Assembly: GCA_028534125.1 (NCBI GenBank)
Contig: CM052816.1
Coordinates: forward strand, 13,270,001 to 13,334,000
Direction of reading: 5' to 3'
DNA length: 64,000 nucleotides
Origin: Lama glama
Taxonomy: Eukaryota
Of this stretch, positions 1 to 60,949 are shown piece after piece. The first letter of the stretch is position 1; each line of letters starts with the position of its first letter. The translations under genes were made by a program, and so were the position numbers. The notes beneath the pieces were generated by a model, which was given only the letters and a program-made list of their open reading frames with translations, was not told the origin of the DNA and ran no database searches.

Positions 1-754
1 AACCCTGCTAAAACGAGAGGCTTACAGTAGCCAAATAGTTCACATCCCCAGTTACATAAGAATAAAGTCAAAAGCACCTGGGCGGGTGGGTGCTGGCTCT
101 TCATGCTGCCTGTGCCTGGGCTTTTTACCTGAGATGTCGTGAGCCCAGGGGAACGTGGGCAGATAAAGGCAGCTCAACCTGGAGAAGGGCAATGGTGCGA
201 TGGAAAGAATCCTGTGGAAGAAAAGGCTCCCTTAAGGTCCTGCATCTGTAGGGCTTCAAGTCCTTATCTAAGAACTTACCTGAGGTTCTTTCTCACTCTG
301 AACAATATAATTGTTACTGCAGTTGTGAGACAGTAAGGCTATGCTCTAACTCCCTTCTGCTTGTAACTTTTTCAGTTTATTTCTCCCACTGCTCTTCTGT
401 GTCAAGTATGAGAACTTCTTCAGCTTCCTGTAATCATCTAAGTTTACTTTTTTGTTTCTCCTAATGGGTAATAATTTTTCCCATTTTGCCGTAGAAAAAT
501 TCTTATTGGCACAGACCTAATTTTAGGGAGCCTCACTAGAAAGCCACATAACATTGAGGGTTTCCGAAAATACGGTAGTAGAGCGTTGTGCCTACTTTAA
601 AAGGGGAAAAGTAGGCAAAAGTTTAAAAGAAAAATACCAGTCCTTGCCCTGTGTTTTGCATCTCTTGTATATTCATTCAGAGACTGTAAAGGAATTAACA
701 TGATTTCTTTTGAAATAAGGATTTTTTTCTGTTTTTTTAAAAAGCACTGTATAC

Positions 755-1850
755 TTTTTTGTGTCTGTATATATTGAAGTATAGTCAGTTTACAGTGTTG
801 TGTCCATTTCTGGTGTACAGCACAATGCTTCAGTCATACATGAACATAAATACTTGTTTTTATATTCTTTTTCACCGTAAGTTACCATGAGATACTGAAT
901 ATAGTCCCACGCGCTATACAGTAGAAACTTATTTATCTATTTTATATACAGTAGTTGGTATCTGCAAATCTCGATCTCCCAATTTATCCCGTGCCACCTC
1001 ATTCCCACCCCGGGTAACCATAAGTTTGTTTTCTATGTCTGTGATTCGGTTTTTGTTTTGTAAATAAGTTTGTGTTTTTTTTTTCTTTTTAGATTCCATG
1101 TATAAGTGATATCATATGGTATTTTTCTTTCTCTTTCTGGCTTACTTCACTTAGAATGACATTCTCCAGGTCCATCCATGTTGCTGCAAAAGGCATTGTT
1201 TTATTATTTTTTATGGCTGAGTAGTATTCCATTGTATAAATATATCACAGCTTCTTTTATCCAGTCATCTGTCGATGGGCATTTAGGCTGTTTCCATGTC
1301 TTGGCTATTGTATATAGTACTGCTATGTACATTGGTGTGCAGGTGTCTTTTTGAATTAAGGCTCCCTCCAAATATATGCCAAGGAGTGGGACTTCTGATA
1401 GGGTAAGTCTATTTTGAGTCTTTTGAGGAGTCTCCATACTATTTTTCACAATGGCTGCACCAAACTGCATTCCCACCACAGTGTAGGAGGGTTCTCTTTT
1501 GTCCACAGCCTCTTCAGCATTTGTCATTTGTGGACTTTTGAATGATGGCCATTCTAGCTGGTGTGAGGTGATGCCTCATTGTAATTTTGATTTGCATTTC
1601 TCTGATAGTTAGTGATATTGAGCATTTTTTTCATGCCGTCTGTTGGCCATTTGTATTTCTTCCTTGGAGAATTGCTTATTTACGTTCTCTGCCCATTTTT
1701 GGAATGGGTTTTTTTTTCTTATTATGCCGTATGAGCTGTTTATATATTCTGGAAATTAAGCTCTTGTCAGTCTCATCTTTTGTAAATATTTTCTCCCATT
1801 TGGTAGGTTGTCTTTTTGTTTTGCTTATGGTTTCCTTTGCTGTGCAAAAT
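755..1850 (-). mobile_element. 5'-truncated LINE-1 (ORF2 C-terminus + 3' UTR), lineage-specific
   Basis: Minus-strand ORFs 1676-1885 (..[19 protein letters not shown]..) and 1204-1527 (..PLLGIY..AKTWKQPKCPSTDDWIK..) are the L1 ORF2 C-terminus; T-rich tail at the left end. Confidence 0.95.
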
Positions 1851-2276
1851 ACTTTTAACTCTTTTGTTCCTCTTTCATAAATCAATTGAGTGAATAATGC
1901 AAACTGATATAGTCAGTTCTCAGAGAAACAGACTGACAGAAATTGTAAAGTGGCAGCATGGTAGTATAACAGATGCTAATCTTTTGACTAGGTTTAAAAT
2001 TTTTTGTGCTTTCCAGAAGTTGACAGTTTACTTGTTAATAAAAATGCATGACCTTTAACTCTTCAAAATATTTTTTTAAAATTTGAGTAAAATTCTAATT
2101 TGTAAAATATGTGTGTGTGTATATAAATTATGTCTCATAAAAATGTTTTACAGACATCTTTCTATGTCAAAGTAAATCTCTTTCTAACTGCGAAATGAAT
2201 GTACTATATTTAACCAGATTTCCATTGAATTTAGATTAACTCACTTTTTGCTACTCTGTTGTCACAGTGTGCATCC

Positions 2277-6655: not shown

Positions 6656-8670
6656 AATCCTTAATCTTACTTTCTGCCGCTATGAATTTGCCTGTGCTGG
6701 AAGTTTCATATAAATTGTATGCAATAAGTGACTTTTGTATCCGCCTTCCTTCATTTAGTATGTTTTCAAGGTTCATCTGTGTTGTCACATTTAACAGTAG
6801 TTCATTCCTTTGTATGACTAAATGATGCTCGTCATGTGACTGTACCACATTTTGTTCCTTCACTGAACTGATGAGACATTAGGTTGTTTCCACTTTCTGG
6901 TCATCATGAATAACGCTGTTGTGAACATTCATGTGTAAGTTTTGGCGTGGACATGTGTTTTCTGTTTTGTGTGTAGACACCTAAGAGGAGAAGTGCTAAA
7001 TGGATACCTTAACCTTTTGAGGAATCGCCAAACCGCTTTCCACAGTGGCTGCACCATTTTCCAATCCCATAAGCAACATTTCAGAATTCCGATTTCTCAG
7101 AATTATTGCCCATATTTGTTATCATCTGTCTTTTTTATAACAGCCATCTGAGTGGGTGTGGCTATCTCACTGTAGTTCTGATTTGCTTCGCACATGATTC
7201 ATGTGATTGAGCATCGTTTCCTGTGCTTCTTGGCCATTTGTATATCTTCGGAAAAAGATCTGTTCAAATCTTTTGCTTTTTTTTTTTTAATTGGGTTGTC
7301 TTTTTATTGTTGTTTTTAAGAGTTCTTTATATATTCTGAATACTATTAGACCCTTACCAGATACATGATATGCAGACATTTTTTTCCCATTCTGAGGGTC
7401 GTCTTTTCATTTTCTTGATAGTGTTAAGTCACAAAAGTTTTTTTATTTTAATGGAGTACAGTTTATCCGTTTTTTTTTTCTTTGATTACTTGTGTTTTTG
7501 GTGTCACATCTTTTTTAAAAAGTGCCTAATCCAAGGTCACAGACTTTTCACCTATGTTTCCTTGTAAGGTTTTTATGGTCTTAGTTCTTACATTTAACTC
7601 TTTGATCCAATTTCAGTTAATTTTTATGCATGGTGTGAGGTATATCTTTACATATAAATATCCGCTTGGCCCACGACCATTTGTTGAAAAGACTTCTCTC
7701 TCCACTGAATGATTTCAGTACCCTTGTCGAAGTCAATTAATCATAAATGTGTGGGTTTATTTCAGGGGTCTCAATTCTATTCCATCGGGCTGTGTGTCAG
7801 ATCTTATGCCAGTACCATATTTTTTTTTAACTGAGTTATAGTCGTTTTACAGTGTTGTGTCAAATTCCAGTGTAGAGCACAATTTTTTAGTTATTCAGGA
7901 ACATGCATATATTCATTGTCACATTCTTTTTCGCTGTGAGCGAAAGATCTTGTATATATTTCCCTGTGCTATACAGTATAATTTTATTTATCTATTCTCC
8001 ATATGCCTGTCAGCATCTACAAATTTCAAACTCCCAGTCAGTCCCTTCCCAACGCCCCTCTCCCCTGGCAACCACAAGTTTGTATTCTATGTCTGTGAGT
8101 CTGTTTCTGTTTTATGTTTATGTTCTTTTTTTTTTAGATTCCACATAGGAGTGCGATCTCATATGGTATTTTTCTTTCTCTTTCTGGCTTACTTCACTTA
8201 GAATGACATTGTCCAGGGACATCCATGTTGCCGCAAATGGCGTTATGTTGTCGTTTTTTATGGCTGAGTAGTATTCCATTGTATAAATATACCACCTCTT
8301 CTTTATCCAGTCACCTGTCAGTGGACATTTAGGCTGTAGAGTAATGCAACAGACTTTTGTGTTATTTTGTATCCTGCAACTGAACTTGTTTATTAGCTTT
8401 AATCGGTTTTTTTGGATAGATTACCTAAGATTTTCTGTATATAAGATCTTGTCATCTGCAAGGAGAGATAGTTTTATTTTTTCCTTTCCAGTCAGGGTGC
8501 TTTTTACTTCTGCTTCCTGCCGAATTGCCCTAGCTCGAACCTGCAGTGTAATGCTGCACACCAGTGGTCAAAGTGGGCATGCTGGTGTTGGTACTGAACT
8601 CAGGGGACAAACTTGCGGTTTAGGTATGTTGTTAGCTGTAGGTTTTTCACAGATGTCTGTATCAGTTTGA
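6656..8670 (-). mobile_element. Old L1M element (3' UTR/ORF2), interrupted by a younger L1
   Basis: Minus ORF 6639-6863 (..RNELLLNVTTQMNLENILNE..) and degenerate ORF2 antisense sequence to 7818, resuming at about 8338-8670. Confidence 0.85.
7820..8337 (-). mobile_element. Young 5'-truncated L1 3' end nested in the older L1M
   Basis: Poly-T at 7820, then sequence highly similar to the 3' UTR of the L1 at 19890-20400 (gtgtcaaattccagtgtagagcacaattttt..cttacttcacttagaatgacatt). Confidence 0.92.
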
Positions 8671-19000: not shown

Positions 19001-19889
19001 ATACATATTCAAAATATTTATGCAGACATAAATATGAAGCAATGAAAAAGTGAGCAGGATGCGGGAGGAAGCTGAAAGGCAAGGAAAGAGACTCTGAAAG
19101 CTGAAGGAAGGAGCCGGTTAAGGTGGAGGGGGAGTTGAGTTTGGTTCAGGAAGTCCTGTGTTCTAGAGCTACTGTAAGTGAGAGCCGAATCCTCAAACAG
19201 TGGGTCCCCATAGGTGACGGGTTGGAGAGAAAGAGAGCCAGTCTCCCAAGTAGACTTCGAAGAAGGAATAGAGTCCTCTACGATGATAAGTGACAGCAGG
19301 AGGGGTTCGGGGCTGGGAAGATGAGCCGCCTCCCCGTGCAGAGCTCACACGTTCAGGGAGAACGCAGGCGTGGTGAAGCAGCAGCCAGGGCAGAGCGGAG
19401 GATCATGTCTGATCGCCCTCCCTGGCTTTTCAGTTCTCAGAGCGCACAGTAAAGGAGTAGCCGTCGTCAGACAGTGTCGTAAGGAAAATGTTGTCGACGG
19501 GAAACGTTTTCATAAAGCGATGCTGCTAAGGAGGAGTGTGTGACCATTGCATAGCCGCCACCACCACCAAAGGCAGTACGAGCAACTCTGAGTCTCTGCG
19601 ACCCTTTCTCAGGGACTTTGGAGGGCCAAGAAGAGAAAGGTTCTTCTGAGTGTAAAAGGCTTCTACCCCCACCGTTCCGTCACTTCAGTGTTACCACACG
19701 TTACTCAGTCATAACTAGGAATTTGTATAAAATTTCACTAGGATGTCATGCTTGGAGAGAAAAATAATTGTTTGGATGTTTTTCTCTGCCAGTAATCCAA
19801 GGAGCATTTGTGGGAAAATATTTACAAATATAGTAAGACCTATTCTCTTTCTGTATTTATATTAAAAATTTTTGTATTGATTTATGTTA

Positions 19890-22800
19890 ACTTTTTTATT
19901 GATTCATAGTGAATTTACAACATTGTGTCAGATTCCAGTGTAGAGCACAATTTTTCAGTTATACATGAACATACGTACGTTCATTGTCACTTTTTTTTCC
20001 CTGTGAGCTACCACAAGATTTTGTATGTATTTCCCTGTGCTATACCATATAATCTTGTTTCTGCATATGCCTGTGAGTATCTACAAATTTTGAAATCTCT
20101 GTCTGTCCCTTCCTACCCCCTGCCCCCTGGGCAACTACAAGTTTGTCTTGTATGTCTGTGAGTCTGTTTCTTTTTTGTATTTATGTTCCTGTTTTTTTAA
20201 ATTAAGATTCCACATAGGAGCGATCTCATATGGTATTTTTCTTTCTCTTTCTGGCTTACTTCACTTAGAATGACATTCTCCAGGGATATCCATGTTGCCG
20301 GAAATCGCGTTATGTTGTCGTTTTTATGGGTGAATAGTATTCCATTGTATAAATAGACCTTCTCTTCTTTATCCAGCCATCTGTCGATGGACATTCAGTC
20401 TGTTTCCATGTCTTGGCTACTGTAAATAGTGATGCTATGCACATTGGGACGCAGGGACCATTTTGAAGTAGGGTCCCTTCTGGATATATGCTCAGAAGTG
20501 GGATGACTGGGTCATATGAAAGTCTATTCCTAGTGTTTTGAGGGATCTCCACACTGTTTTCCACAGTGGCCGCACCAACCTGTATTCCCACCAGCAGCGT
20601 AGGAGGGTTCCGTTTTGGCCACAGCCTCTCTAGCATTTGTCATTTGTGGACTTTTGAGTGACGGCCATTCTGGCTGGTGTGAGGTGATCCCTCATTGTAG
20701 TTGTGATTTGCATTTCTCTGGTAATTAGCGATGTAGAGCATTTTTTCACATGCCTATTGATCATGTGTATGTCTTCCTTGGAGAATTGCTTGTTTAGGTT
20801 TTGTGCTCATTTTTGGATTGGGTTGTTTGTTTTCTTCTTCTCATGTCATATGAGCTGCTTATATATCCTGGAGATCAAGCCTTTGTTGGTTTCATCGTTT
20901 GCAAAGATTTCCTCCCATTCCGTCAGTTGTCGTTTTGTCTTACTTATGGTTTTCTTTGCTGTGCAGAAGGTTGTAAGTTTCAGTAGGCCCCATTTGCTTA
21001 TTCTTGCTTTTATTTCTATTGCTTGGGCAGGCTGCCTTAGGAGAACATTTTTGAGATGTACATGAGATAATGTTTTGCCTACGTTTTCTTCTAGATTTAT
21101 TGTATCTTGTGGTATGTGTAAGTGTTTGATCCATGTTGAGTTGATTTTTGTGTGTGGTGTAAGGGAGTGTTCTAGCTTCATTGCTTTACATGGTGCTGTC
21201 CAGTTTTCCCAACACCATTTGCTGAAGAGGCTGTCTTTATTCCATTGTGTTTTCTTGCCTCCTTTGTCGAAGATGAGTTGACCAAAAGGTTGTGGGTTCA
21301 TTTCTGGGCTCTGTTTTCTGTTCCATTGGTCTGTAGGTCTGTTTTTGTACCAATACCATGCTGTCTTGATGACTGTAGCTCTATAGTATTGTCTGAAGTC
21401 TGGTAGAGTTACTTGTCCAGCCTCTTTCTTTTTCTTCCGTAATGCTTTGGCAATTCTAGGTCTTTGGTGGTTCCATATAAATTTTATTATGTTTTGTTTT
21501 AGGTGTGTGAAATATGTTTTGGGTAATTTGATAAGGATTGCATTCAATCTGTGATTGCCTTGGGCAGTGTGACCATTTTAACAGTATTGATTCTTCCAAT
21601 CCAGGAGCATGGAATATGTTTCCATTTTTTTAAGTCTTTAATTTCCTTCATCAGTGGTTTATAGTTTTCCATGTATAAGTCTTTCACCTCCTTGGTTAGA
21701 TTTATCCCTGGGTATTTTATTACTTTGGGTGCTATTGTAAAGAGGACTGTTTGTTTACTTTCTGTTGATTCATCGTTAGTGTAAAGAAATGCCACAGATT
21801 TTTGAACGTTCATCTTGTAACCTGCTACCTTGATGAATTCTTCGATCAGCTCTAGTAGTTTGTGTGTGGACCTTTTAGGGTTTTCTATATACAGTAACAT
21901 GTTGTTGGTGTCTAGTGACACTTCTACCTCTTGTTTTCCCATTTGGATCCCTTTTATGTCTCTCTCTTGCCTGATTGCTGTGGCTAGGACTTCCAAGACA
22001 ATGTTGAATAGGAGTGGTGAGAGTGGGCAGCATTGTCTTGCTCCAGATTTTAGTGGGATGCTTTTGAGTTTTTCACCGTTGAGTACTATGCTGGCTGTAG
22101 GTTTGTCATAAATAGCTTTTGTGACGTTGAGATACATTCCGTCTATACCTAGTTCGGTGAGAGTTTTTATCATAAATGGGTGTTGAATTTTATCAGATGC
22201 TTTTTTTGCATCGATTGAGATGATCATGTGGTTTTTGTCCTTTTTCTTGTTGATGTGATGTATTAGATTGATTGAGTTGCATATGTTGAAGCAGCTTTGT
22301 GTCACTGAGATGAACCTCACTTGGTCATGATGTATAATCTTTTTTATGTGCTGTTGGATTCTGTTTGTGAATGTTTTGGTAAGGATTTTTGCATCTGTGT
22401 TCATCAGTGATATTGGTCTGTAATTCTCTTTTTTGGTTGTGTCTTTGCCTGATTTTGGTATCAGGGTGATGGTGGCTTCATAGAATGAGTTTGGGAGTAT
22501 TCGCTCCTTTTCAATCTTCTGGAGGAGTTTGAGAATGACTGGTATGAGTTCTTCTTTGTATGTTTGGTGGAATTCCCCGGTGAAGCCATCTGATCTTGGA
22601 TTTTTATTTATAGGGAGGGTTTTTTTTTTATTGCTGATTCGATTTCATTTCTAGTGATCAGTTTGTTCAAGTGGTCAGTTTCTTTTTGATTTATTCCTGG
22701 TCGACTGTATGCTTACAGAAAGTTGTCCATTTCCTCTAGGTTACCCATTTTGGTTGTATATAGTCTTTCATAATATTCTCGCCTGATATTCTGTATTTCT

Positions 22801-25520
22801 GTTATTGGTTGTAATTTCTCCATTTTCCTTTCTTATTTTGCTTATTTGTGCTTTCTCTTTTTTCTTCTTGGTGAGTTTGGCTGGAAGTTTGTCAGTTTTA
22901 TTTATTCTTTCAAAAAACTAGGTTTTGGTTTGATTGATTGTTTCTATGGTGGTTTTAGTCTCTATTTTATTTATTTCCTGTCTGATCTTTATTATTTACT
23001 TCCTTCTGCTGCCCTTTGGGGTTTTTTGCTCTTTTTTTTGTAATTCTTTTAGCTCGTGGGTTAGATTGTTTATTTGAGATTGTTTTTCTTTTTTGAGGAA
23101 GGCCTGTATCACTATAAACTTTCCTCCTAGCAATGCCTGTGCTGCGTTCCATAAATTTTGTATGGTTGTGTTTTCATTCTCATTTGTCTCAAGGTATTTT
23201 TTGATTTCCACTTGGATTGCATCATTGATGTATTGGTTTTTTAGCAGCATGTTGTTTAATCTCCATGCTTTCCTTTTTTTCTCCTTTGTTTCTCTGTAGT
23301 TGATTTCTAGTTTCATGGAATTGTCGTCAGTAAAGATGCTGTAGATAATTTCTATCTCCTTAAAATTGTTGAGGCTTCTTTTGTGCCCAAGTACATAATC
23401 AATCCTGGAAAATGTTCCATGTACACTTGAAAAGAATGTATATCTTGTTTTGGGGGTGTGTGATGCTCTGAAAATATCCACCATATCTAACTTGTCTATT
23501 GTATCATTTAATTTCTCTGTTGCCTTACTTGTTTTCTTTCTGGGAGATCAGTCTAGTGATGTTAATGCAGTGTTGCAGTGTCCGAAAGAGATTGTATTCC
23601 CATCCATATCCCCCTTTATCTCTGTTAGTTATTGCTTTATGTCCTTAGGTGTTCCTATATTGGGGGCATATATATTAAGGAGTGTAATATCCTCATCTTG
23701 TATTACTCCTTTAATTATTATTAGATGTCCTTCTTTATCTTCCTTTATGGCCTTTGTTTTAAAGTCTGTTTTGTCTGAAATCACTACTGATGGTAACCCT
23801 GCTTTTTTGGCTCTTCCATTTGTATGGAATATCCTTTTCCATCCTTTCACTGTCCATCTATATGTGTCCTTCTCCCTAAAGTGGGTGTCTTGTATGTAGA
23901 ATCTTGACGGTTCTTGCTTTATTATCCAGTCTGCCACTGTACGTCTTTCGATTGGAGCATTTAGTCCATTAACATTTACAGTAATTAATGATCGATGTGT
24001 GTTTATTGCCGTGTTTGAACTTATTTTTGCAGTGGATTTGGTATTTCCTCTTTGTTCCTTTCTTCTTTTTGTGGTGTGATAATTTTCATTTGTATTATCT
24101 TGGATTTTATTTAGTTTTTGTGACTCCCTTGTAAGATTTTGGCTTGCTGTTGCCCTTTTTTGTAAGTCTATTAGACCATTACTATAACTGTTTGTATTAA
24201 ACAGATAGTAATATAAGCTCAAACCCATCCTACGAAGAAGGAAACATTTAAAAAAGAAAGAAGAAAAATACTCTATATTTGCTTGTTTCCCTCTCCCACT
24301 CTTAATGATTTAGATGTCTTCTTTTGCAATTTCATGTGTATTCTATTTGTAATTCATGGTAGGTGTTACCTTTCCAATTACGAGTTTCTCATTTTTGTAG
24401 CATCCTGCTTCTTTTCTATTTGGAGTAGACCTGTCAGTATTTCTTTTAGCATGGGTTTAGTGTTGCTAACTCTAGTTTTTGCTTGTCTGTGAAATTCTTT
24501 CTCTCTCCTTTTCTAAAGGATAGCCTTGCTGGATAAAGTATCCTAGGCTGCATCTTTTTTTGTTTCAGGACTTTGAATTTATCTTGCCACTCCCTTCCGG
24601 CCTGTCGTGTTTGTGTAGAGAAATCAGCTGAGAGCCTCATGGGGGTTCCCTTGTAACTCACTCTTTGGTTTTCTCTTGGTGCCTTTAGGATCCTTTCTTT
24701 ATCCTTGACCCTGGCCATCTTGATTATGACATGTGTTGGTGTGAGTCTATTGGGTTCTTCCAGTTTGGGACCCTCTGAGCCTCTGGTAGTCGGTTATCTG
24801 ATTCCTTCTTTAGGTTTGGAAGTTTTCAGGCATCATGTCTTCCAGTACCTTTTCAGTCCCCTTGGTTCTTTCTTCCCCTTCTGGGACCCCCATTATGTGT
24901 AGATGGGCATGCTTTATATTATCCTATAGGTTCCTTATGTTGTTTTCATTGTTTTTTACTTGTTTTCCTCTCAGCTGTTCTGATTGGTTGCTTTCTGTTG
25001 TCCTGTGTTCTCGGTCACTTATTCGTTCCTCTGCATTATCTAGCCTGCTTTGTGCAGCCTTTAGATCAGCTGTCATCTCAGCCAGTGAGCTTACCAATTC
25101 TATTGGCTATTCTTTATAGCTTCCATATTATTTTTGAAATATTTTATATTTCACAACAGTATCTTTTTTAGTTTGTTCAGTACTTTGATCACTCCTTTTT
25201 TGAAATCTTGATCTAGTAGGCCATTGATGTTTTTTTCCTTGATCGTACTGTCAGGGGATTTCTCTTGCTCTTTGAATTGGGAGTGGTTCCTCTGCTTCTT
25301 CATCTCGCTCCTGTCTGTCTGGTACTGTGGCTTATGGAGTATCAGTTATCTATTGTGGTCCTTATGGAGTTTATTTATTTATCTATCTAACGCCTATGCA
25401 GGAAGAAAACTTAATAAGAAAGAGAATTTTATAGGAAGGGAGGAGAAAAAAGTTTGAAAACAGTGTATGATCAATAATAGAAGAGCAAGTTGAATCAGAA
25501 TAGCAATTCAGTTGAGATTT
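19890..25520 (-). mobile_element. Near full-length but inactivated LINE-1 (ORF1 + ORF2, partial 5' UTR)
   Basis: ORF1 starts at ATG 25303 (MKKQRNHSQFKEQEKSP..) and continues in 24446-24718 (..MRLSADFS..ILYPARLSF). ORF2 is broken into endonuclease (..ITVNVNGLNAPI..NIYAPN, 23629-24228; 22996-23484), RT (21544-22404, [18 protein letters not shown], catalytic ADD motif degraded to DTNN) and C-terminal pieces (20846-21547, 20310-20636). The 5' boundary is approximate. Confidence 0.97.
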
Positions 25521-25862: not shown

Positions 25863-25914
25863 CATTTAATCATACTTTTTAATACATGTGTGATATCCGT
25901 CATATGGCTATATT

Positions 25915-34064: not shown

Positions 34065-34564
34065 NNNNNNNNNNNNNNNNNNNNNNNNNNNNNNNNNNNN
34101 NNNNNNNNNNNNNNNNNNNNNNNNNNNNNNNNNNNNNNNNNNNNNNNNNNNNNNNNNNNNNNNNNNNNNNNNNNNNNNNNNNNNNNNNNNNNNNNNNNNN
34201 NNNNNNNNNNNNNNNNNNNNNNNNNNNNNNNNNNNNNNNNNNNNNNNNNNNNNNNNNNNNNNNNNNNNNNNNNNNNNNNNNNNNNNNNNNNNNNNNNNNN
34301 NNNNNNNNNNNNNNNNNNNNNNNNNNNNNNNNNNNNNNNNNNNNNNNNNNNNNNNNNNNNNNNNNNNNNNNNNNNNNNNNNNNNNNNNNNNNNNNNNNNN
34401 NNNNNNNNNNNNNNNNNNNNNNNNNNNNNNNNNNNNNNNNNNNNNNNNNNNNNNNNNNNNNNNNNNNNNNNNNNNNNNNNNNNNNNNNNNNNNNNNNNNN
34501 NNNNNNNNNNNNNNNNNNNNNNNNNNNNNNNNNNNNNNNNNNNNNNNNNNNNNNNNNNNNNNNN
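34065..34564. other. Assembly gap (500 N)
   Basis: Run of exactly 500 N; the round number suggests a placeholder size. Confidence 1.

Positions 34565-36627: not shown

Positions 36628-36628
<1 letters not shown>

Positions 36629-36678
<50 letters not shown>
36629..36678. repeat. (CA)25 microsatellite
   Basis: Direct reading; perfect 50-bp tract. Confidence 0.98.
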
Positions 36679-36679
<1 letters not shown>

Positions 36680-38759
36680 CCTTCGCAGCTTACTCGTGAA
36701 GAAACAGTCCCACGGTAGTCTAGACCTATCCAACGTCAGGTCACCCGACCTTTAAAACGCTACATGTGGGATCGGAAGCATGTCCGTTTGACCACAAACA
36801 AGCTCCCTTTCGGCCTCCTACAACCACGAGACCACACAGAGGTCTCCTTTGCACAGGGTTCTAGACAGAACACATACCGTTCTATTCACGAAAAAGCTTT
36901 AAAACTCTCAAGTCCCGTCAAAGGACTACTTACACATTCTTCACACGGGTGTTTCTGTCATGTATATACATACATCTATAATGGCTTGAGGAAACATGAC
37001 AGAATTAACCTTACCAATCTTTCACTATTGCACTTATTTGACATACACTGAAAACACAGACAACTGGTTGGTCCCTAAAAATAGAAATCAGATGACACAC
37101 ACGGGCTGAGCAGGAAAAGGAGCATCTTCAGAACCGCAGCCAAGGAAGTTTCTGCTTCCCTCACATGGCTGCGTGCACTCCCTCCGGGCCCTCCTCCTTG
37201 TCTGTAAAACTCTGGCCCAGAGCGGCTCCACTCCATTAAGCACAGGTTTCCATTCATCCAGGGTGCCTCGTACCAGGCCCACAGCACACTCCGTTCAGGT
37301 TATTCTCTTCCACTGTGGGCGGTCAGTAGGCACTCCGTCCACGCTCCCAGATGTACCAGGGAATCGATGCCTTGCGACACGGAAGCATCCTGAGATGCTC
37401 CTGGACGGTGTTTAGAGAACAACATGAAACCCTGTGGCCTCTTCCCAGAACCAGGGCAGGGGGAACGTTGGCCTGTTGGCTAAGCCTCTAGATAAACAGA
37501 CGGTTGGCAACGTTCAGTACGCTTCCTTGAGGACAAACTTTAGAGGGAGCTTTGAGTTTGAGCCTCACTACACTGACATTGATAACACACACGGTCATTC
37601 TACACAAATTGCTGTCATTTTACAATTAACTTTCAACTGTTATTCCTAACACAGAACAACAACAATGACGAAACATAGAACAATGTCGTTTCTAACCATG
37701 ATACTAACCCAAACCATTTTAGTGACTTCGCTCTGAGTGACTTTCACCCCGTTGGACATCTACTCATGTTATTAGCTGCATTTATAAAAGATGACCTAGA
37801 GAAAGCTCACCAGTGCTTCAAGTTCATTCCTCAATGCCATCTCTTCTAGAAAGCCAGGCAGACCAAGAAGACCTCAGACAGAGGGGATGGGGTGTTTATG
37901 TGCTTGCTCACACGCAGGAGGAAAAGCATACTGTAGAGTTCCAGGATCAGCACACTGCTGCCTCCCCATTTTTGACACACACATCAAAAGAGAAGGAACG
38001 GGTCAGTCTCCAAAAACTACTTTTAGAGACTTCTGAGGTACGCAAGGTTAGAAACTCTCATCGCACAGTTTTACAAACTCCTCAGTCACACGGTACAGTT
38101 TTGTCTCTAACGTTATCGTGTAAGACGAAAATTCCTTATCAGGATGCAATATTGGAAGCCGCTGTATCATCTGTTAGGAAGTGTTTTAGGGTGGATTTTT
38201 CCTCCAGCATTAAAAAGATTACTATGATGTTGACAAATATGTCTTCATAAGCCAATGTGACAACATGTTGAGCATTCATGCCTAATGTAGTGGAGCCGCT
38301 GCGGGCCAGAGTTTTATCAGACAAGGAGGAGGGCCTGGAGGGAGCACACGGAGCCACGTGTGACAAAATGCTGAGCATTCATGAGTTTAAGTAGACGTAT
38401 ATCCACGGCACACATGCTTTCAACGGTTCTCTGGGTTTGAAAATTTTCAAAACGTACATTAGGAAAACAGTCATTATCTTTAAACACTACACCTACACTG
38501 ATGGTGGCAAGAAGTCTGCAACATGAACACTCGACCTAAAGCAGGAAAAGCAAGTCCACCTTTTCCATGTTGGCCTCCAGGACACATCTCGAGTGGGGAG
38601 GGCAGAACAGTCCTCACTGGTGGGACCCAAGTCCTGGAAAAAAGTCCTCATTGTCAAACTGGAAGGTCACATGAGGTCAGGTTTCTGCGTCACTCTTTTG
38701 TAAGTCGTAAGAAGCCGTCATTTCACCGAGGATGCCATGGGGAACCAGACATTCAAACA

Positions 38760-39058
38760 CACTCACACCTCACAGGGACTGCGCGTTCGCTGCCAGACCA
38801 CCTCGAGAAGGCAGATATTGCGATACAGCAAGTCAGACGACTTTGCTGCTTTCCCAGTACGTGTTAAAATTGTTTACACTGTTAACTGTGCAGTAGCATC
38901 GTGTCTAAAAAACTATGCAAATACGTTTATTTAAAAACACTCTTTGCTAAAAAATACTAACCATCTGACAACACACGGTTACCACCAACTCTCAGTCTGT
39001 AAGAACTGCAACCTCTGTGAAGTGTCACTAAGCAAAGTAATAAAACGAGGTATGCCTG
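38760..39058 (-). mobile_element. Internally deleted Tigger1 derivative (~300 bp, Tigger1a-like MITE)
   Basis: Right end aataaaacgaggtatgcctg followed by TA is the Tigger1 terminal inverted repeat. The left end cactcacacctc..gttcgctgccagaccacc is the degraded opposite end. Internal gcagtagcatcgtgtctaaaaa..tgctaaaaaatactaaccatctga matches the Tigger1 3' region. Confidence 0.85.
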
Positions 39059-39128
39059 TAACATGTTTCCACTTACTAGAGACACGGTTAGAAACGTCAT
39101 GGGACTTGATTCCATTTAGAAACATGCC

Positions 39129-40245
39129 TGAGGAATCTCCATACTGTTTTCCATCATGGCCGCACCAACCAGCATTCCCACCAGCACCGTAGGACGGTTC
39201 CCTCTTCTCCGCACCCTCTCCGGCATTGACCATTTATGGACTTCTGAATGATGGCCATGCTGGCTGACCTGACGTCAGATCTCATCGAAGTTTTCATTTC
39301 TATTTCGCTCATCATTACCAAAACTGAGCATTTCTCTGTGTGCCTATTGCCCATTTCTGTGTCTTCATGGGAGAATGGCTTCTGCCCATTTTTGCTTTTT
39401 GGGTTCGTTTCTTTCTTTCTTTCTTTCTTATTAAGTTGTATGAGCTGCTTCTATATTCTGTAAACTAAGCCCTTGGCAGTCACATCTTTTGCAAGTATTT
39501 TCTACCAGTCCGTAGGCTGTCTTTGTTACACTGATGTTTTTTTGGTTTCGTGCAGCCATTATGGTCAAACAAGATGGACATTCCTCCAAAGACTGAAAAA
39601 TAGACTTACCGTATGGTCCGGCAGTCCCACTCCTGGGCATATATCCAGAGGTTACTCTACTTTGAAAAGACACGTGCACCCCAGTGTCCATAGCAGTACT
39701 ATTTCCAGTAGTTGACATGTGGAACCCACCCCAATGTCCATCCACAGATTACTGGATAAAAAAGCTGCAGTATATTTATACAACGGAATACGACTGAGCC
39801 ACAAAGAATAATAAAATAATGCCATTTGCGGCAACATGGATGGACCTACAGATCATCCTACTAACTGAAGTCAGCCCGAAAAAGAATAATACCGTGTGAT
39901 ATCACTTCTATGTGCCCTCTAAAAAGCAGACACATGAACTTACTGACCAAACAGAAGCAGACTCACTCACAGACATAGGAAACAATCTAATGCTCGCTAG
40001 GGGGTAAAAAGGGCAGGAAGGGATCAATGGGAAGTTTGAGCTCTGCAGCTACTAATATATATACAACACATCAACAAGTTGATACTGTACAGCACCGGGG
40101 ACTCCCTAATACTTTATAGTAACCTCTAATGAGAAAGAATACAAACACAAATGTATGTATGTATGTATATGTATGACTGAAACGTTGGGCTGTACACCAG
40201 AAACTGGCAACATTGTCAACTGACTCTACTTCAATAAAAAATAAA
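39129..40245 (+). mobile_element. 5'-inverted (twin-primed) L1 insertion
   Basis: 39129-39549 is L1 ORF2 in antisense. 39550-40245 is L1 ORF2 end + 3' UTR in sense, ending cttcaataaaaaataaa. It has the same 3' UTR type as the L1 at 755-1850. Confidence 0.9.
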
Positions 40246-40782
40246 TTCAAGACAATTTAAGGCGGAGAGATACCTGTACAATATCTTAAATTTAGAAGAA
40301 ATAAAGATGTCCTAAGCATTAAAAAGTGGAGGAAGCCTCTTTTGGGGGTGATGGATAGATGCTACACTTTCTTGAACGTGGTGGAACATCATGGTGGTAT
40401 TGACACAACTGTCCACTTGACAGAACTCATCAACTGTACACTTACAGCGTGAACGTTACTGTATGTAATACTTGCATAAAGGTGATTATAGATACTGACA
40501 AATCCTAGGCAACTAAAAATGATCATCTAAGGGAAGCACAATCTCACCATCCTTTTTAAGAATACTTACCAAGAAATTATCTTACTCTTAATTTAGTGTA
40601 GAAGAAGACTACAACATCATTGGAACCTATTTTACAGAGCCTGTTTTAATGCTGGCTAGTATCTGCAGCCAGAGTACGGTGTGAACGTGCTCTCGGTGAC
40701 GTGAGACTCTAAGATAACTGCTTTCATGCTGCTTTGGCAGTCGTGATGGTTACCTTCTAACATGCCTCTCTTCCTTCTTTAG

Positions 40783-40946
40783 CCCTGGAATGAGACCAGA
40801 CGTCAACTCTCCTCCATCCAGCTCTTCAGCGGCCACGGGACCACCTCCCAAACTCTGCCTGGTGTGCTCGGATGAGGCTTCGGGATGTCATTATGGGGTT
40901 CTGACTTGTGGAAGCTGTAAAGTATTCTTCAAAAGAGCAGTGGAAG
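40783..40946 (+). CDS. NR3C1: Glucocorticoid receptor exon 3 (end of N-terminal domain + first zinc finger, P-box)
   Basis: Acceptor ttccttctttag ends at 40782; translates ..[54 protein letters not shown]; donor GAAG|gtagtg at 40947. 164 nt. Confidence 0.99.
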
Positions 40947-41127
40947 GTAGTGTGTGTTTTGAAGAGTTTTGTTCTTCCTCTATTGGGTTCCTGTTTCTCT
41001 GAGTGGATTTGGAAATACATACTATATGCAAAACCCATTAAGGCTAGAAGTCAGTAAAACCAGGAAGAGGGCGCTGGCTCCTCAGTCCTCTCGTGGGAAA
41101 GAGAGACTTCAAACAGCAACGCAAAGC

Positions 41128-41281
41128 AGGAGGGAAGAGCTCAGTGGTGGAGCACATGCCTGACAAGCACGCCGTCTTGGCTTCCATTTCCACTACCTCC
41201 ATTAGAAATCAAAAAAAAAGTTAAAAATAAATAAACCTAATTACATTCCCCACCCCCTAAAAAAAAAAAAAAGGAAAAAAA
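41128..41281 (+). mobile_element. Vic-1-type SINE (diverged) in intron 3
   Basis: agctcagtggtggagcacatgc..ctacctccatt head, then aaataaataaacctaattacattcccc and poly-A, the typical Vic-1 3' part. Confidence 0.85.
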
Positions 41282-43749
41282 CCTTAGTTCAAAAGCAACA
41301 TAGGCCAACTAGAATAAAATAGAAGAGTCTGAACTCAAGGGAGGGAGCACAGTCAGAGAACAAAAGAGAACCGTAAGACGGCGCCATCACGTACGGTGAC
41401 CGCGCTAGGCTTCGGCAGTAACGGCGCTCGTCGTATTACTGTCGCGGACTTCCATCCATCCCTGTAGACTGGCTGCTTCTAAAGCCGCCAGCTGTCCCAC
41501 TCTGGCAAAAATGAGTGACAGTGAAAACCGTGAGGGGGGGAAAGGATTTGTTTCCGTTTCTCCCTAGTGAGCCATGGCAGTGCGCTAAGGAACGCCTAAA
41601 TGCGGTGGTGGTTATACGATATTAGACCTGCTCCCGGCCCCCGGGACGTCAAGTCAACTTGGAGGGAAAAGATGAGTTAACAATCACAAGCTACCGAGAT
41701 GATAGCACAGGGGGCAAGTGATCAACTGCCTGAGGAGGTCAGGGAAGACGGTATTTTAGAGAAAGGGGTTTCACCCGACGATTGTTCTCTTCATAGCAGC
41801 GTGACCCTTGTGACAGTTTCAGTCTGCTTACAAAGGCAACTGCCCAAAGAAGGAAACGTTCATTTCCTAACTTATTGGAAACCCACTAACATTTTCCAAT
41901 ACCAGCAATTTCTCTGGGAAACAAACTTGCACCATTTAGTTGTTTGCAAAGCTTCAGAGGCAGTGTGGCGGGAATGAATTACCTACAGCTCTGATTATAT
42001 GACTTTTAAAGACATACCATTATCTATTCATTCACAGGATGAGAAGGACTACTACCACCAGTATTACTATTAGCCTTTACTTGTGTGTGCATGTCCCTAA
42101 CAGTTCCATGAGTCATTTCCCTTTGCTTGGATGGCTTCTAATACATTGACACACCATAAAATTGCCCACGTTACCCACATACAGCACAGGGATGCAGGCT
42201 TCGACCGCTTTGCTACATCCTCCAGCTACTGAGTAGACTAGACGGTCCTTCAGTAGAGCGCACCGCGAGCTCATGCGGTGCCACTAACACAGGAGTGGTA
42301 TTTACCACAGACCCCAGGGAGAAGGAAGGTTCCTGTCCTTCCTTTACTCAGCACTTCTGAACTAGTTACTTACTTCCAGGATATCAATTCAGTGGTAGCA
42401 GCATTGCACTCTTCCCGTATATAGTAAAGAATACTGACAGACTGAATCCTGAGAGAGACATTCAGAATCAGACAATGGAGCCTTAAAACACTTACAGGTA
42501 TTTGAAAAATGTTTTCCATTGCTCTTCATCTTCACTAAAACTGTTCTTTAACAACGGGCTACAGATTCCACTTCCACGGCCTACAGGAACCCCGTGTGTG
42601 TCACTGGCCAAATACAATACAACTGGAGGAAGGAGGCCAATCATTGCTACGGGAGTGCAGCCATGCCCTGCCTAGAAGCATCCACATGTCATTTACCAAG
42701 AAAAAAAGGCTAAACATCCCTCCCAAGTGAGACATCGCTGCGGGCCGTAGGCCCTCTGGGCTAAATCCCCGTTTGACAATCAAATTCTTAAGACTTGTTT
42801 TGAGGTAAAAATGTCATCGACTATTAAATGATACACATTTTGAAACAGTACAGCTAAATGTCTCAGTCAAGTACGCTGGCTACGTGACATGATTACTAAG
42901 AAAAGGCTAAAATGGGGACTGAGTTAATTAAATCCTTAATTTGGATTTAAATTGTCTTCACGCTCCTTCCAGCTCTAAAGTTTGGTCATCCTTCGCTAGC
43001 CTAACTCATAGTGCTTTTTCCACTTTTCCTTCCGAGTCACGATGCATATATGTTTTAAGCCCAGATACCTATTTTGCAGCACTCTCCAATCGTGACAAAG
43101 GTGCTCGTTGTGTGATTTTTACAATACTATGTGCATTCCATTTTTAACACCTGCTAGAATTTACAGGTTATCCACCACATCAGTACAGCATCTATTAAAT
43201 ACCCAAACATTTAAATATTTTTAGGAAATCTGCACAAGTTTTACCAGTTATCCATACAACACAGATCAAGGATATGTTGAATTTTAATTCTTTATTCTGA
43301 GAGTTGCTTTCCTTTCACAGGAAAGAACTGTGGGTAGCTCCACTTCTTTTGATCTAAACTAGTTCAGTCATCTTTCCCCCCCACCCGAGTCCCTTTCTCC
43401 TTTGTCCCCTTTGCCCGTAAGGGCGCGCCATCGTCGTCGGTGGGTCGCGACGGAGATGGGCGTCGGCTGCCCTCTAGTTCCCCTGTACCGAGTACCATGT
43501 ATGTGTATCGTATCACGTCATGAACAGCTCTGTGAGCTCTTAGATGGTGTTATGATCCACATTTGCGTGTCCGGGAAACGGAACCTCACACAGCTTCAGT
43601 GGCAGACCTAGAACTCAAACATAGCTGTCTCCAAACACGCTCTTCACCACAGTGCTGCACTGCCTCCCAGGTGTGGCAGAAGTCTTGCCTCCTGGCAGTT
43701 TACAGTCTAGTTATATACTGAGATCAAAGCCCTAACGAGGGAATTACTT

Positions 43750-43950
43750 AATAGCTAGCACTCATCGAGAGCTTACGACGTGCTCGGCGCTATTTTTTAA
43801 GAACCTTCGACGCGACGGCCTTTAACCCTGGCAAAAGCTCAGCAACATCCGTGCTCAGGCTCCAGCTTTACAGAGGTGGGGGGGACGGGCTCAGCAAAGT
43901 TAGTCAGCACTGCTGAAACCACACGGCTAGGAAACAGAGCTGCCACTGAG
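43750..43950 (-). mobile_element. MIR SINE, unusually CpG-rich
   Basis: atagctagcactcatcgagagcttacgacgtgctcggcgct..tttacagaggtggggggacgggctcagcaaagttagtca follows the MIR antisense layout. Confidence 0.7.
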
Positions 43951-46719: not shown

Positions 46720-47049
<330 letters not shown>

Positions 47050-60900: not shown

Positions 60901-60949
60901 TTTTAACTGATTATATTTCAATTAAAAAGAAAACAGTAGAGTATTCCAA

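What the first reader, a model, noticed from the sequence alone, without database searches (positions are those of the whole stretch)
39260..39332. Local G>C (minus-strand C>G) hypermutation measured against in-window paralogous L1 copies
Seen: 39260-39332 aligns without gaps over 73 bp to the L1 copies at 1554-1626 and 20670-20742. Those two copies differ from each other at 9 positions. The 39.3-kb copy differs at 19 positions where the other two agree, and 7 of these are G>C, 3 are T>C and 0 are C>G (hand count). This copy shares its 3' UTR type with the 755-1850 L1, so greater age is an unlikely explanation. Established: ordinary neutral decay of mammalian repeats is transition-dominated, whereas C>G excess is typical of abasic-site/REV1 bypass and of clustered germline mutation regions. 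Inference: this part of NR3C1 sat in a lineage-specific, strand-biased germline hypermutation zone.
Basis: partly seen in the sequence, partly recalled or inferred. Interest (0 to 1): 0.8.

Follow-up and report, generated by a model that had tools for sequence, protein, structure and literature searches.

The report
Strand-biased GC-ward mutation zone in NR3C1 intron
An old jumping-gene copy just upstream of exon 3 of the glucocorticoid receptor gene carries about twice the usual number of changes, nearly all towards G or C and with G-to-C changes on one strand only, and a second copy 18 kb away shows the mirror image, which looks like the accumulated scar of repeated DNA-break repair in the germ line.

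Summary
The hand count is exact: 19 private differences in 73 bp, with 7 G>C, 3 T>C and 0 C>G.

The signal is much wider than 73 bp.
- **The element.** It is a 5'-inverted L1 3' end (39129-40245) in NR3C1 intron 2.
- **Its load.** Against the majority of 29 genome copies it is about 16% diverged, where other copies are 7-8%. It has G>C 23 vs C>G 1 on the + strand and W>S 114-116 vs S>W 35. Its S>W rate is normal, so it is not older.
- **Not a subfamily effect.** 20 of the 23 G>C are private, and the bias follows the genomic strand across the L1 inversion junction. This also rules out a cDNA effect.
- **The neighbour.** The adjacent unrelated repeat (38759-39065) shows the same pattern.
- **Not an assembly error.** 17 of 20 independent sequencing runs hold more of the stretch's words than an error could allow.
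- **The mirror.** A long L1 at 19.9-25.5 kb has C>G 46-48 vs G>C 7. Fisher P for the flip is 2e-14, and 0 of 70 control evaluations come close.

Between the two zones the GC skew changes sign. An assembly gap there hides at least 2 kb of CpG-rich DNA.

Best reading: long-lived break or recombination activity, combining biased gene conversion with REV1-type bypass on resected single strands. This is known in kind from human data. The mechanism is inferred, not shown.

The parts
39260..39332 (.). It is the local peak of + strand G>C changes.
   Evidence: 19 private differences, 7 of them G>C and 0 C>G; scan-statistic P = 0.046 within the L1.
39129..39524 (-). Arm A of a 5'-inverted (twin-priming type) L1 3' end. 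On the + strand it reads antisense.
   Evidence: matches 1424-1815 plus/plus, where that copy is antisense; 379 sites, 15.8% from the majority; + strand G>C 12, C>G 0, T>C 15.
39545..40245 (+). Arm B of the same L1. It is sense on the + strand and ends in an A-rich tail.
   Evidence: matches 1465-772 plus/minus; 680 sites, 16.0% from the majority; + strand A>C 25, A>G 24, T>C 17, G>C 8, C>G 1; 17.7 gap opens per kb, against 7.0-13.5 in 29 controls.
38759..39065 (.). An unrelated old interspersed repeat directly upstream of the L1. It carries the same bias.
   Evidence: 18.6% divergence against a mean of 12.7% for 28 copies; W>S 33, S>W 9; G>C 7, C>G 2. GC* 0.65 against 0.39.
19869..25520 (-). 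A long L1, antisense on the + strand, with the mirror-image bias: C>G, C>T and A>G in excess on the + strand.
   Evidence: The 3' part has C>G 16-17 vs G>C 1, all private. The 5' part has C>G 31 vs G>C 6, C>T 52 vs G>A 23, and 8.4% divergence against 4.5% for 12 copies. Pooled, one search gives 46:7.
34065..34564 (.). A 500-N assembly gap at the point where the GC skew changes sign. It hides at least 2 kb of CpG-rich DNA.
   Evidence: skew is positive to the left and negative from 34.5 to about 53 kb; unplaced 200-mer graph contigs extend 1578 bp rightwards from 34064 (GC 0.48, CpG o/e 0.73) and 430 bp leftwards from 34565 (GC 0.55, o/e 0.59). They do not bridge the gap.
40856..40897 (+). Core of NR3C1 exon 3 (first zinc finger). 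It fixes the gene on the + strand and places the L1 in intron 2, about 0.6 kb upstream.
   Evidence: a six-frame motif scan also finds exon 4 at 46873-46947, exon 5 around 51905 and exon 6 at 53022-53153, all on the + strand.
41129..41280 (.). A short SINE-like repeat downstream of exon 3. Overall divergence is back to normal, with a possible residual G>C.
   Evidence: 12.2% against 11.2% for 20 copies; W>S 7, S>W 5; G>C 3 of 23 G sites, C>G 0.
735..1875 (-). An in-window control L1 that lacks the S>S asymmetry.
   Evidence: G>C 2, C>G 2; divergence 9.9-10.1%; GC* 0.44.
7820..8337 (.). A young L1 3' end, used as an in-window control.
   Evidence: 5.7% against 4.1% for 15 copies; C>G 1, G>C 1; W>S 17, S>W 7.

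Best explanation
The excess is real and fixed in the germ line. It arose after the L1 inserted, and it belongs to a regional, strand-asymmetric, GC-ward substitution zone in NR3C1 intron 2.

The most likely cause is recurrent double-strand-break or recombination activity around CpG-rich, promoter-like DNA in the intron. That DNA includes the unassembled stretch at about 34 kb and possibly the GC-rich patches at 36-37.5 kb.

Two processes then add up:
1. GC-biased gene conversion raises W>S fixation.
2. The 3'-ended single strand left by resection, or by break-induced replication, collects cytosine damage and abasic sites. Translesion polymerases fill these in, with REV1 inserting C. This gives C>G, with some C>T and A>G, on the exposed strand. 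That strand is the + strand left of the break sites and the - strand right of them.

The finding lies on the right side, so the changes read G>C on the + strand.

What is shown: the spectrum, its extent, its strand polarity, its mirror image and its independence from the L1 strand. What is inferred: the break origin, the polymerases and the role of the CpG-rich DNA.
For: **Load and age**
- The copy is 15.8-16.0% from the majority, against 7.3-7.8% for other copies. Its S>W rates are unchanged.
- W>S:S>W is 114-116:35, giving GC* 0.63, against 0.36 for 29 controls.

**Strand bias**
- G>C 23 vs C>G 1, with 20 of the 23 private.
- The same pattern appears in the neighbouring unrelated repeat.
- The bias follows the genomic strand across the L1 inversion junction.

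**Mirror image**
- The L1 at 19.9-25.5 kb has C>G 46 vs G>C 7, C>T 8.1% vs G>A 4.8%, and A>G 7.9% vs T>C 4.1%.
- When the right zone is written on the - strand, the two spectra match: C>G 12.4% vs G>C 1.2%, and C>T 8.0% vs G>A 5.3%.
- Fisher P for the flip is 2e-14.

**Controls**
- 0 of 70 control evaluations reached P < 0.01.
- The in-window L1s at 0.7-1.9 kb and 7.8-8.3 kb show no S>S asymmetry.

**Other signs**
- Indels are raised: 17.7 gap opens per kb against 7.0-13.5.
- GC skew changes sign at about 34 kb.
- The gap there holds CpG-rich DNA with o/e 0.59-0.73.
- CpG o/e is 0.36-0.78 over 30-48 kb. The median is 0.17, and the 95th percentile 0.39, in 171 other 1-kb pieces of this genome.
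- Independent runs hold the sequence.

**Literature (passages read)**
- Hinch et al. 2023 (PMC7615360) place single-stranded DNA left of the break on the forward strand and right of it on the reverse strand.
- They report C>N and A>N asymmetry that flips across the hotspot, long-range (>10 kb) asymmetric C>G and A>G ascribed to translesion synthesis in break-induced replication, and C>G as a REV1 signature.
- Joseph et al. 2024 (PMC11161765) report PRDM9-independent hotspots at CpG-island-like loci, active in most mammals and readable as raised GC*.
Against: - **Distance.** The zones lie 4-7 kb (right) and 8.5-14 kb (left) from the gap. That is far beyond the 1-2 kb of meiotic resection. Only the long-range component, or several break sites, would fit.
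- **S>W not reduced.** Pure gBGC predicts a drop in S>W, and none is seen.
- **A>C in arm B.** Arm B has A>C 25 vs T>G 6 on the + strand, a class and polarity not listed by Hinch et al.
- **The 25.9-26.5 kb block.** It has a normal GC* of 0.38 and no C>G asymmetry (2:2-3), only C>T 21-23 vs G>A 4-6.
- **No cytosine-deaminase context.** There is no TpC or CC preference.
- **Orientation unverified.** The left contig's orientation relative to the right one was not confirmed. All exons lie right of the gap and the graph walk did not bridge it. If that contig is inverted, the asymmetry is uniform rather than bipolar.
- **Proxy ancestor.** Ancestral states are majorities of paralogous copies, not outgroup-polarised orthologues.
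- **No direct data.** I had no recombination, DSB or methylation data for this organism. The literature pattern comes from humans.
Confidence: 0.5

Rival explanations
1. An oocyte-type, transcription-associated C>G process, the 'process 6/7' of human population data. Damage builds up on the exposed non-transcribed strand in long-arrested oocytes, in local spikes.
For: Seplyarskiy et al. 2021 (PMC9217108, passages read) describe a strand-asymmetric, C>G-dominated process with strong local spikes. [quoted passage not shown] The left zone (19.9-25.5 kb) has C>G on the + strand, which is the non-transcribed strand of NR3C1.
Against: At the finding itself the polarity is the opposite: C>G falls on the transcribed strand, 31:3. 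An antisense transcript over 38.7-41.3 kb would be needed, and I have no evidence for one. The asymmetry here is 7:1 to 23:1, far above the 1.5-3-fold reported. The W>S excess is not part of that process.
Confidence: 0.15
2. Replication-direction asymmetry. Forks converge near 34 kb, so the lagging-strand template is the + strand on the left and the - strand on the right. That template is briefly single-stranded and collects cytosine damage, which REV1 then bypasses.
For: The polarity of both zones, and the change of GC skew from positive to negative at about 34 kb, fit converging forks as well as they fit a break centre. This is my own derivation from the geometry.
Against: From recall, germline replication asymmetries in mammals amount to a few tens of percent, not 7-23-fold. 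A replication effect should also stretch over whole replication domains. Here the L1s at 0.7-1.9 kb, 7.8-8.3 kb and 60.9-62.2 kb show no clear S>S asymmetry. It does not explain the local GC* peak or the excess of indels.
Confidence: 0.1
3. The left contig (1-34064) was placed in the wrong orientation by the scaffolder. The true pattern would then be one uniform strand bias, C>G on the transcribed strand, over at least 20 kb, with no centre.
For: The sign change sits exactly at a 500-N scaffold join. All NR3C1 exons found lie right of it. The graph walk did not join the two sides.
Against: The left contig has G>C and T>A skews, which are ordinary for the coding strand of a + strand gene, and its L1s are antisense to the gene. 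This is weak evidence. The extensions into the gap keep their own side's skew, +0.10 and -0.13. This rival changes the geometry only; the hypermutation itself would still be real.
Confidence: 0.1
4. An assembly or base-calling artefact. Spurious C and G calls in a poorly covered stretch would produce the pattern.
For: Changes are 'to C' from all three other bases, 81 of 169, which looks like a calling bias. The assembly is fragmented, with 1,072,352 contigs.
Against: 20 runs from 5 coded organisms and 8 studies hold 55-79% of the stretch's sampled 31-mers. 17 of the 20 exceed the roughly 0.66 that is possible if the L1 part carried about 95 errors. Only 6 of 2971 of those 31-mers occur elsewhere in my library. 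The pattern also extends to a neighbouring repeat, and in mirror image to a 5.6-kb L1 18 kb away.
Confidence: 0.04
5. The copy belongs to an older or different L1 subfamily whose consensus already carries these bases.
For: The best matches in the whole genome are only 75-78% identical.
Against: S>W rates equal those of the other copies. 20 of 23 G>C and 24 of 29 A>C changes are private. The bias reverses, in L1-sense terms, between the two arms. The unrelated upstream repeat shares it.
Confidence: 0.02

Closest known systems
Strand-asymmetric mutagenesis flanking meiotic DSB hotspots (Hinch, Donnelly & Hinch 2023, Science; PMC7615360, passages read)
   Same: Complementary classes are enriched on opposite sides of a centre: C>G, C>T and A>G on the forward strand to the left, and their complements to the right. 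The polarity matches the one that paper gives for resected single strands. C>G is the hallmark class, ascribed there to REV1. A long-range (>10 kb) component exists for C>G and A>G. Indels are raised as well.
   Different: That pattern is a small per-site excess, seen only when rare variants of about 25,000 human hotspots are pooled. Here it is read from fixed differences at one locus, with 5-14% of the affected C or G sites replaced. The zones lie 4-14 kb from the presumed centre. A>C is also raised on one side. No DSB map exists for this locus.
PRDM9-independent recombination hotspots at CpG-island-like loci, detected by gBGC (Joseph et al. 2024, PNAS; PMC11161765, abstract and passages read)
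   Same: There is a local peak of equilibrium GC content, 0.63-0.65 against 0.36-0.39, next to CpG-rich DNA. CpG o/e is raised across the region.
   Different: gBGC alone does not change S>S classes and should lower S>W. Here G>C is the most enriched class and S>W is unchanged. Germline methylation and recombination rate at this locus are unknown. No camelid name occurs in that paper's main text, and I did not read its species list (Dataset S3).
Oocyte-specific C>G process 6/7 and maternal mutation clusters (Seplyarskiy et al. 2021, Science; PMC9217108, passages read; Jonsson 2017 and Goldmann 2018 seen only as cited there)
   Same: The process is local, C>G-dominated and strand-asymmetric. 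It has been linked to breaks or damage outside S phase.
   Different: There the excess falls on the non-transcribed strand. At the finding it falls on the transcribed strand. The size of the asymmetry and the W>S load are also far larger here.
APOBEC/AID kataegis and APOBEC-type germline clusters
   Same: Both show strand-coordinated C>G and C>T changes that point to a single-stranded intermediate.
   Different: No TpC, CC or WRC context preference was found. W>S changes dominate in number.

Membership tests
Meiotic-DSB-associated strand-asymmetric mutagenesis | [quoted passage not shown] | tested here: met
   Left: C>G 46 vs G>C 7. Right: G>C 31 vs C>G 3. Fisher P = 2e-14. This holds only if the scaffold orientation is correct, which I could not verify.
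Meiotic-DSB-associated strand-asymmetric mutagenesis | Polarity: C>N and A>N on the forward strand left of the break, since that is the 3'-ended strand left by resection. | tested here: met
   On the left + strand: C>G 5.0% vs G>C 0.8%, C>T 8.1% vs G>A 4.8%, A>G 7.9% vs T>C 4.1%. On the right the complements appear. The A>G/T>C asymmetry is weak on the right, at 10.0% vs 9.3%.
Meiotic-DSB-associated strand-asymmetric mutagenesis | Spatial scale: peaks 0.7-0.8 kb from the centre, flanks of about 2 kb, and a weaker tail beyond 10 kb. | tested here: inconclusive
   No centre is mapped. The zones lie 4-14 kb from the gap. G>C density falls from 25% of G sites (39129-39428) to 5.6% further right, which hints at a nearer centre to the left of 38.76 kb.
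Meiotic-DSB-associated strand-asymmetric mutagenesis | The centre is a mapped DSB hotspot (DMC1 or SPO11 signal, or crossover data). | not testable with these tools
   No such data were available for this organism.
gBGC hotspot | Equilibrium GC content is raised relative to the flanks and the genome. | tested here: met
   GC* is 0.63 (L1) and 0.65 (upstream repeat), against pooled control values of 0.36 and 0.39. Other blocks in the window range from 0.38 to 0.57.
gBGC hotspot | The S>W substitution rate is lowered. | tested here: not met
   In the L1, C>T is 6.2% and G>A 7.9%, against about 7% in other copies. Only the upstream repeat is lower, with 9 S>W in about 100 S sites against about 13%.
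gBGC hotspot | Only W<->S classes are affected. | tested here: not met
   G>C is raised about tenfold, 11.4% against about 1.2%. gBGC can therefore be only part of the cause.
Oocyte process 6/7 (transcription-associated C>G) | C>G is raised on the non-transcribed strand of the gene. | tested here: not met
   NR3C1 is on the + strand. At the finding, C>G falls on the - strand, which is the transcribed one, at 31:3. The feature is met only in the left zone.
APOBEC/AID-type clusters | TpC (or CC, or WRC) context of the mutated cytosines. | tested here: not met
   Right zone: a 5' T in 9 of 31 (9.0 expected) and a 5' C in 8 (7.2 expected). Left zone: a 5' T in 24 of 46 (21.5 expected).
Older or different L1 subfamily | Differences are shared with other copies, all classes including S>W are raised, and the bias is tied to the L1 strand. 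| tested here: not met
   20 of 23 G>C changes are private. S>W is unchanged. The bias flips between the arms in L1-sense terms.
5'-inverted (twin-priming type) L1 insertion | Two adjoining L1 segments lie in opposite orientation, the 3' one ends in an A-rich tail, and the whole is flanked by target-site duplications. | tested here: inconclusive
   The orientation and adjacency of the arms are shown (1424-1815 plus, 1465-772 minus, with a 42-bp overlap in the reference copy). The A-rich tail is visible. Reading by eye, I could not recognise a clear target-site duplication.

The most novel reading that the evidence does not exclude
NR3C1 intron 2 of this lineage holds a long-lived, probably PRDM9-independent break hotspot. 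Its mutational footprint has built up to 5-14% replacement of C or G sites on the resected strand.

If so, the polarity, reach (at least 14 kb) and spectrum of single-strand-associated translesion mutagenesis can be read directly from one genome at one locus. The footprint would appear as a bipolar C>G/G>C pattern around unassembled, CpG-rich and highly heterozygous DNA, a few hundred bases from the exon that encodes the receptor's first zinc finger.
Probability: 0.3. Interest if true: 0.75.

Novelty: new member of a known kind. Interest (0 to 1): 0.6.

Why it matters
Strand-asymmetric C>G mutagenesis around germline breaks has so far been seen only statistically, by pooling rare variants over tens of thousands of human hotspots or megabase regions.

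This locus shows the footprint in fixed substitutions, with a mirror image on the other side. That would give a natural single-locus record of three things: which strand was exposed, how far, and with what spectrum.

It also bears on two further points:
- Such activity can double the substitution load, raise CpG content and erase repeats inside an essential, conserved gene.
- Unusual repeat divergence can mark past hotspots in genomes that lack recombination maps.

As practical advice, repeat-based dating in such zones overestimates age roughly twofold.

Tried and rejected
- **Metagenome scan.** A scan with a 30-base word from the zone found nothing. I kept no independent contig from it.
- **Bridging the gap.** I walked the assembly's unplaced 200-mer graph contigs. 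They extended 1578 bp and 430 bp into the gap but did not join.
- **Earlier notes of this scan.** None exist for this genome or for these words. One search failed on a sign in a word.
- **Subfamily or age.** Rejected.
- **Editing of L1 cDNA or RNA before integration.** Rejected. The S>S bias follows the genomic strand and reverses between the two arms in L1-sense terms. The neighbouring non-L1 repeat shares it.
- **APOBEC context.** Not found.
- **Tandem repeats.** Tandem repeats as a cause of the skew in 28-42 kb: only two short arrays are present.
- **Literature search on maternal clusters**. It listed nothing useful beyond the papers I cite.
- **PRDM9 status.** A search for PRDM9 in camelids gave no paper on it, and I did not examine the gene in this genome.
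Full report
**1. Observation**

The three stretches align without gaps over 73 columns. A script reproduces the hand count exactly.
- The copies at 1554-1626 and 20670-20742 differ from each other at 9 positions.
- The copy at 39260-39332 differs at 19 positions where those two agree: G>C 7, T>C 3, G>A 2, T>G 2, C>T 2, T>A 2, A>C 1, C>G 0.

**2. What the element is**

Self-comparison of the window shows that 39129-39524 matches 1424-1815 in the same orientation, while 39545-40236 matches 1465-772 in reverse. In the copy at 772-1815 the two parts are contiguous, with a 42-bp overlap, and antisense on the + strand.

The 39-kb element is therefore a 5'-inverted L1 3' end of the twin-priming type.
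- Arm A (39129-39524) is antisense on the + strand.
- Arm B (39545-40245) is sense and ends in an A-rich tail.
- Reading by eye, I could not recognise a clear target-site duplication.

A six-frame motif scan places the NR3C1 exons on the + strand: exon 3 at about 40856-40897, exon 4 at 46873-46947, exon 5 near 51905 and exon 6 at 53022-53153. The L1 thus lies in intron 2, about 0.6 kb upstream of exon 3.

**3. Extent of the anomaly in the L1**

The window's own assembly (2.35 Gb) holds no copy more than 78% identical to arm B.

I anchored 29 genome copies plus the two in-window copies on the query and took the column majority as an ancestral proxy.
- Arm A is 15.8% from the majority (379 sites) and arm B 16.0% (680 sites). 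All other copies pooled give 7.8% and 7.3%.
- Of the 169 changes on the + strand, 81 are to C, 47 to G, 21 to A and 20 to T.
- G>C is 20 and C>G is 1.

With the 29 genome copies alone, G>C is 23 and 20 of these are shared by at most one other copy. C>G is 1. A>C is 29, of which 24 are private. T>G is 15.

S>W rates (C>T 6.2%, G>A 7.9%) equal those of the other copies, which are about 7%. The copy is therefore not older. It carries an extra load made of W>S changes and G>C.

The copy has 22 CpG, where the majority has none. Gap opens are 17.7 per kb, against 7.0-13.5 in 29 controls.

The flagged 73 bp are a modest local peak, with a scan-statistic P of 0.046. G>C takes 15 of 59 G sites in 39129-39428 and 8 of 143 further on.

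**4. Not an L1 property**

In L1-sense terms the S>S bias reverses at the inversion junction: C>G 12 vs G>C 0 in arm A, and G>C 8 vs C>G 1 in arm B. It belongs to the genomic + strand. That excludes both a subfamily consensus and any process acting on L1 RNA or cDNA.

The unrelated old repeat directly upstream (38759-39065) shows the same pattern against 28 genome copies:
- 18.6% divergence against a mean of 12.7%;
- W>S 33 vs S>W 9;
- G>C 7 vs C>G 2.

A short SINE-like repeat at 41129-41280 is back to normal divergence (12.2% against 11.2%; W>S 7, S>W 5). It still has G>C at 3 of 23 G sites and no C>G.

**5. Real or artefact**

The index of public runs lists 20 runs, from 5 coded organisms and 8 studies, that hold 55-79% of the 303 sampled 31-mers of 38300-41300.
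- The L1 makes up 36.6% of the words of that stretch. Only 6 of 2971 words occur elsewhere in my library.
- Suppose the roughly 95 excess changes were errors. Then about 6% of L1 words would survive, and no independent run could exceed about 0.66.
- 17 of the 20 runs do exceed that value.

This is an inference from shares, not position-resolved support.

**6. The wider region**

I applied the same method to every repeat in the window for which I could fetch copies.

| Block | Divergence, block vs controls | S>S classes (+ strand) | Other classes | GC* |
|---|---|---|---|---|
| 735-1875 | 9.9-10.1% vs 8.3% | G>C 2, C>G 2 | – | 0.44 |
| 7800-8345 | 5.7% vs 4.1% | C>G 1, G>C 1 | W>S 17, S>W 7 | 0.57 |
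| 19869-25520 (3' part) | 15.3-15.5% vs 9.1% | C>G 16-17, G>C 1 | – | 0.54 |
| 19869-25520 (5' part) | 8.4% vs 4.5% | C>G 31, G>C 6 | C>T 52, G>A 23 | 0.45 |
| 25900-26520 | 17.0-17.2% vs 13.9-14.1% | C>G 2, G>C 2-3 | C>T 21-23, G>A 4-6 | 0.38 |
| 60900-62150 | 16.8-17.8% vs 12.3-12.4% | G>C 7-8, C>G 5 | W>S 62-66, S>W 39-43 | 0.44 |

- The long L1 at 19869-25520 shows the mirror image of the finding. All the C>G changes in its 3' part are private.
- Per site in its 5' part, A>G is 6.3% and T>C 2.8%.

Pooled counts give C>G 46 vs G>C 7 on the left, and G>C 31 vs C>G 3 on the right. Fisher P is 2e-14.

When the right side is written on the - strand, the two spectra agree:

| Class pair | Left (+ strand) | Right (- strand) |
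|---|---|---|
| C>G vs G>C | 5.0% vs 0.8% | 12.4% vs 1.2% |
| C>T vs G>A | 8.1% vs 4.8% | 8.0% vs 5.3% |

No TpC or CC context preference appears. Among 70 control evaluations (41 distinct copies, 29 of them seen against two anchors), none reaches P < 0.01 and the most lopsided is 6:0.

GC* is 0.63-0.65 at 38.7-40.3 kb. Pooled controls for those blocks give 0.36-0.39.

**7. The middle**

GC skew in 2-kb windows is positive from about 8 to 34 kb and negative from 34.5 to about 53 kb. The change falls at the only assembly gap, 34065-34564.

CpG o/e is 0.36-0.78 over 30-48 kb. In 171 1-kb pieces of other loci of this genome the median is 0.17 and the 95th percentile 0.39. Those loci are L1-rich and may bias the baseline downwards.

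Unplaced contigs that overlap by 199 bases extend the left side by 1578 bp (GC 0.48, CpG o/e 0.73, skew +0.10). They extend the right side by 430 bp (GC 0.55, o/e 0.59, skew -0.13). The two sides do not meet. They come as pairs 98-99% identical, which means a cluster of heterozygous sites.

By contrast, my searches with 25500-34000 and 41300-51000 listed no such near-identical partners, apart from the two contigs at the gap edge.

The gap therefore hides at least 2 kb of CpG-rich, polymorphic DNA. Because all exons lie right of the gap and the walk did not bridge it, the orientation of the left contig remains unverified.

**8. Mechanism**

The facts call for a process with these properties:
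- it acts after insertion;
- it is confined to part of the intron;
- it is strand-specific, with opposite polarity on the two sides;
- it is rich in C>G and accompanied by W>S and indels.

The closest description in print is Hinch et al. 2023 (PMC7615360; passages read).
- After a meiotic break, single-stranded DNA lies left of the break on the forward strand and right of it on the reverse strand.
- The flanks show C>N and A>N on the forward strand, and the complements on the other side.
- C>G and A>G also show strand-asymmetric excess beyond 10 kb, ascribed to translesion synthesis during break-induced replication.
- C>G is called a telltale of REV1.

The polarity here is the one that model predicts. 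The W>S excess and the raised GC* fit GC-biased gene conversion at a PRDM9-independent, CpG-island-type hotspot. Joseph et al. 2024 (PMC11161765; abstract and passages) report such hotspots as active in most mammals.

I commit to this combined break-repair reading at about 0.5.

Points against it:
- the distances (4-14 kb from the gap);
- the unreduced S>W rate;
- the A>C excess in arm B;
- the ordinary block at 25.9-26.5 kb;
- the lack of any recombination or break data.

**9. Rivals**
- **Oocyte process 6/7.** Described by Seplyarskiy et al. 2021 (PMC9217108; passages), it is local, C>G-dominated and strand-asymmetric, but it raises C>G on the non-transcribed strand. That fits the left zone and is the opposite of what is seen at the finding.
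- **Converging replication forks.** They would give the same polarity. From recall, though, germline replication asymmetries are small and domain-wide.
- **A mis-oriented left contig.** This would turn the bipolar pattern into a uniform one without removing the anomaly.
- **Artefact and subfamily.** Both are disfavoured by sections 3-5.

**10. Verdict**

Its inference, a strand-biased germline hypermutation zone with a REV1-type signature, is supported and can be widened.
- The zone spans at least 38.76-40.25 kb.
- It carries more W>S than G>C changes.
- It has a mirror-image partner at 19.9-25.5 kb.
- It surrounds CpG-rich unassembled DNA.

Lineage specificity was not tested, because no outgroup sequence was available to me. 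In kind this is known from pooled human data. As a single-locus footprint in fixed differences, of this intensity, it is a new and unusually legible member.

Noticed in passing
34065-34564 and unplaced contigs L081, L082, L150-L160: The only gap in the window hides at least 2 kb of CpG-rich DNA (CpG o/e 0.59-0.73). The unplaced graph contigs that cover it come in pairs 98-99% identical. This means a cluster of heterozygous sites, whereas about 18 kb of flanking sequence searched the same way listed no such partners.
   Followed up: partly
26000-53000: CpG o/e is 0.36-0.78 over most of 30-48 kb at only 41-48% GC. The median is 0.17 in 171 other 1-kb pieces of this genome. Every repeat tested in the window except 25900-26520 has a higher GC* than its genome controls.
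   Followed up: partly
41300-51000: This stretch covers NR3C1 introns 3 and 4 with exon 4. It is almost free of recognisable repeats: only 16 candidate matches in the whole genome, none longer than about 200 bp. The region is either strongly conserved or its repeats have been worn away.
   Followed up: no
25900-26520: An old repeat with C>T 21-23 vs G>A 4-6 on the + strand, but with no C>G asymmetry and a normal GC*. This is a strand-coordinated transition excess without the transversion component.
   Followed up: no
39545-40245: Arm B has A>C 25 vs T>G 6 on the + strand. This to-C excess from A is absent in arm A and is not part of the published break-associated spectrum.
   Followed up: no
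37162-37242 and 38279-38360: A local inverted match of 81 bp at 88% identity lies just upstream of the zone.
   Followed up: no
36625-36678: An (AC)27 microsatellite sits inside the most C-skewed part of the window (GC skew -0.4 to -0.5 at 36.5-36.8 kb).
   Followed up: no
20846-24309 (- strand): The long L1 at 19.9-25.5 kb keeps open stretches of 183-366 codons of its reverse-transcriptase gene, split by frame breaks. It is 84-88% identical to its best genome relatives.
   Followed up: no
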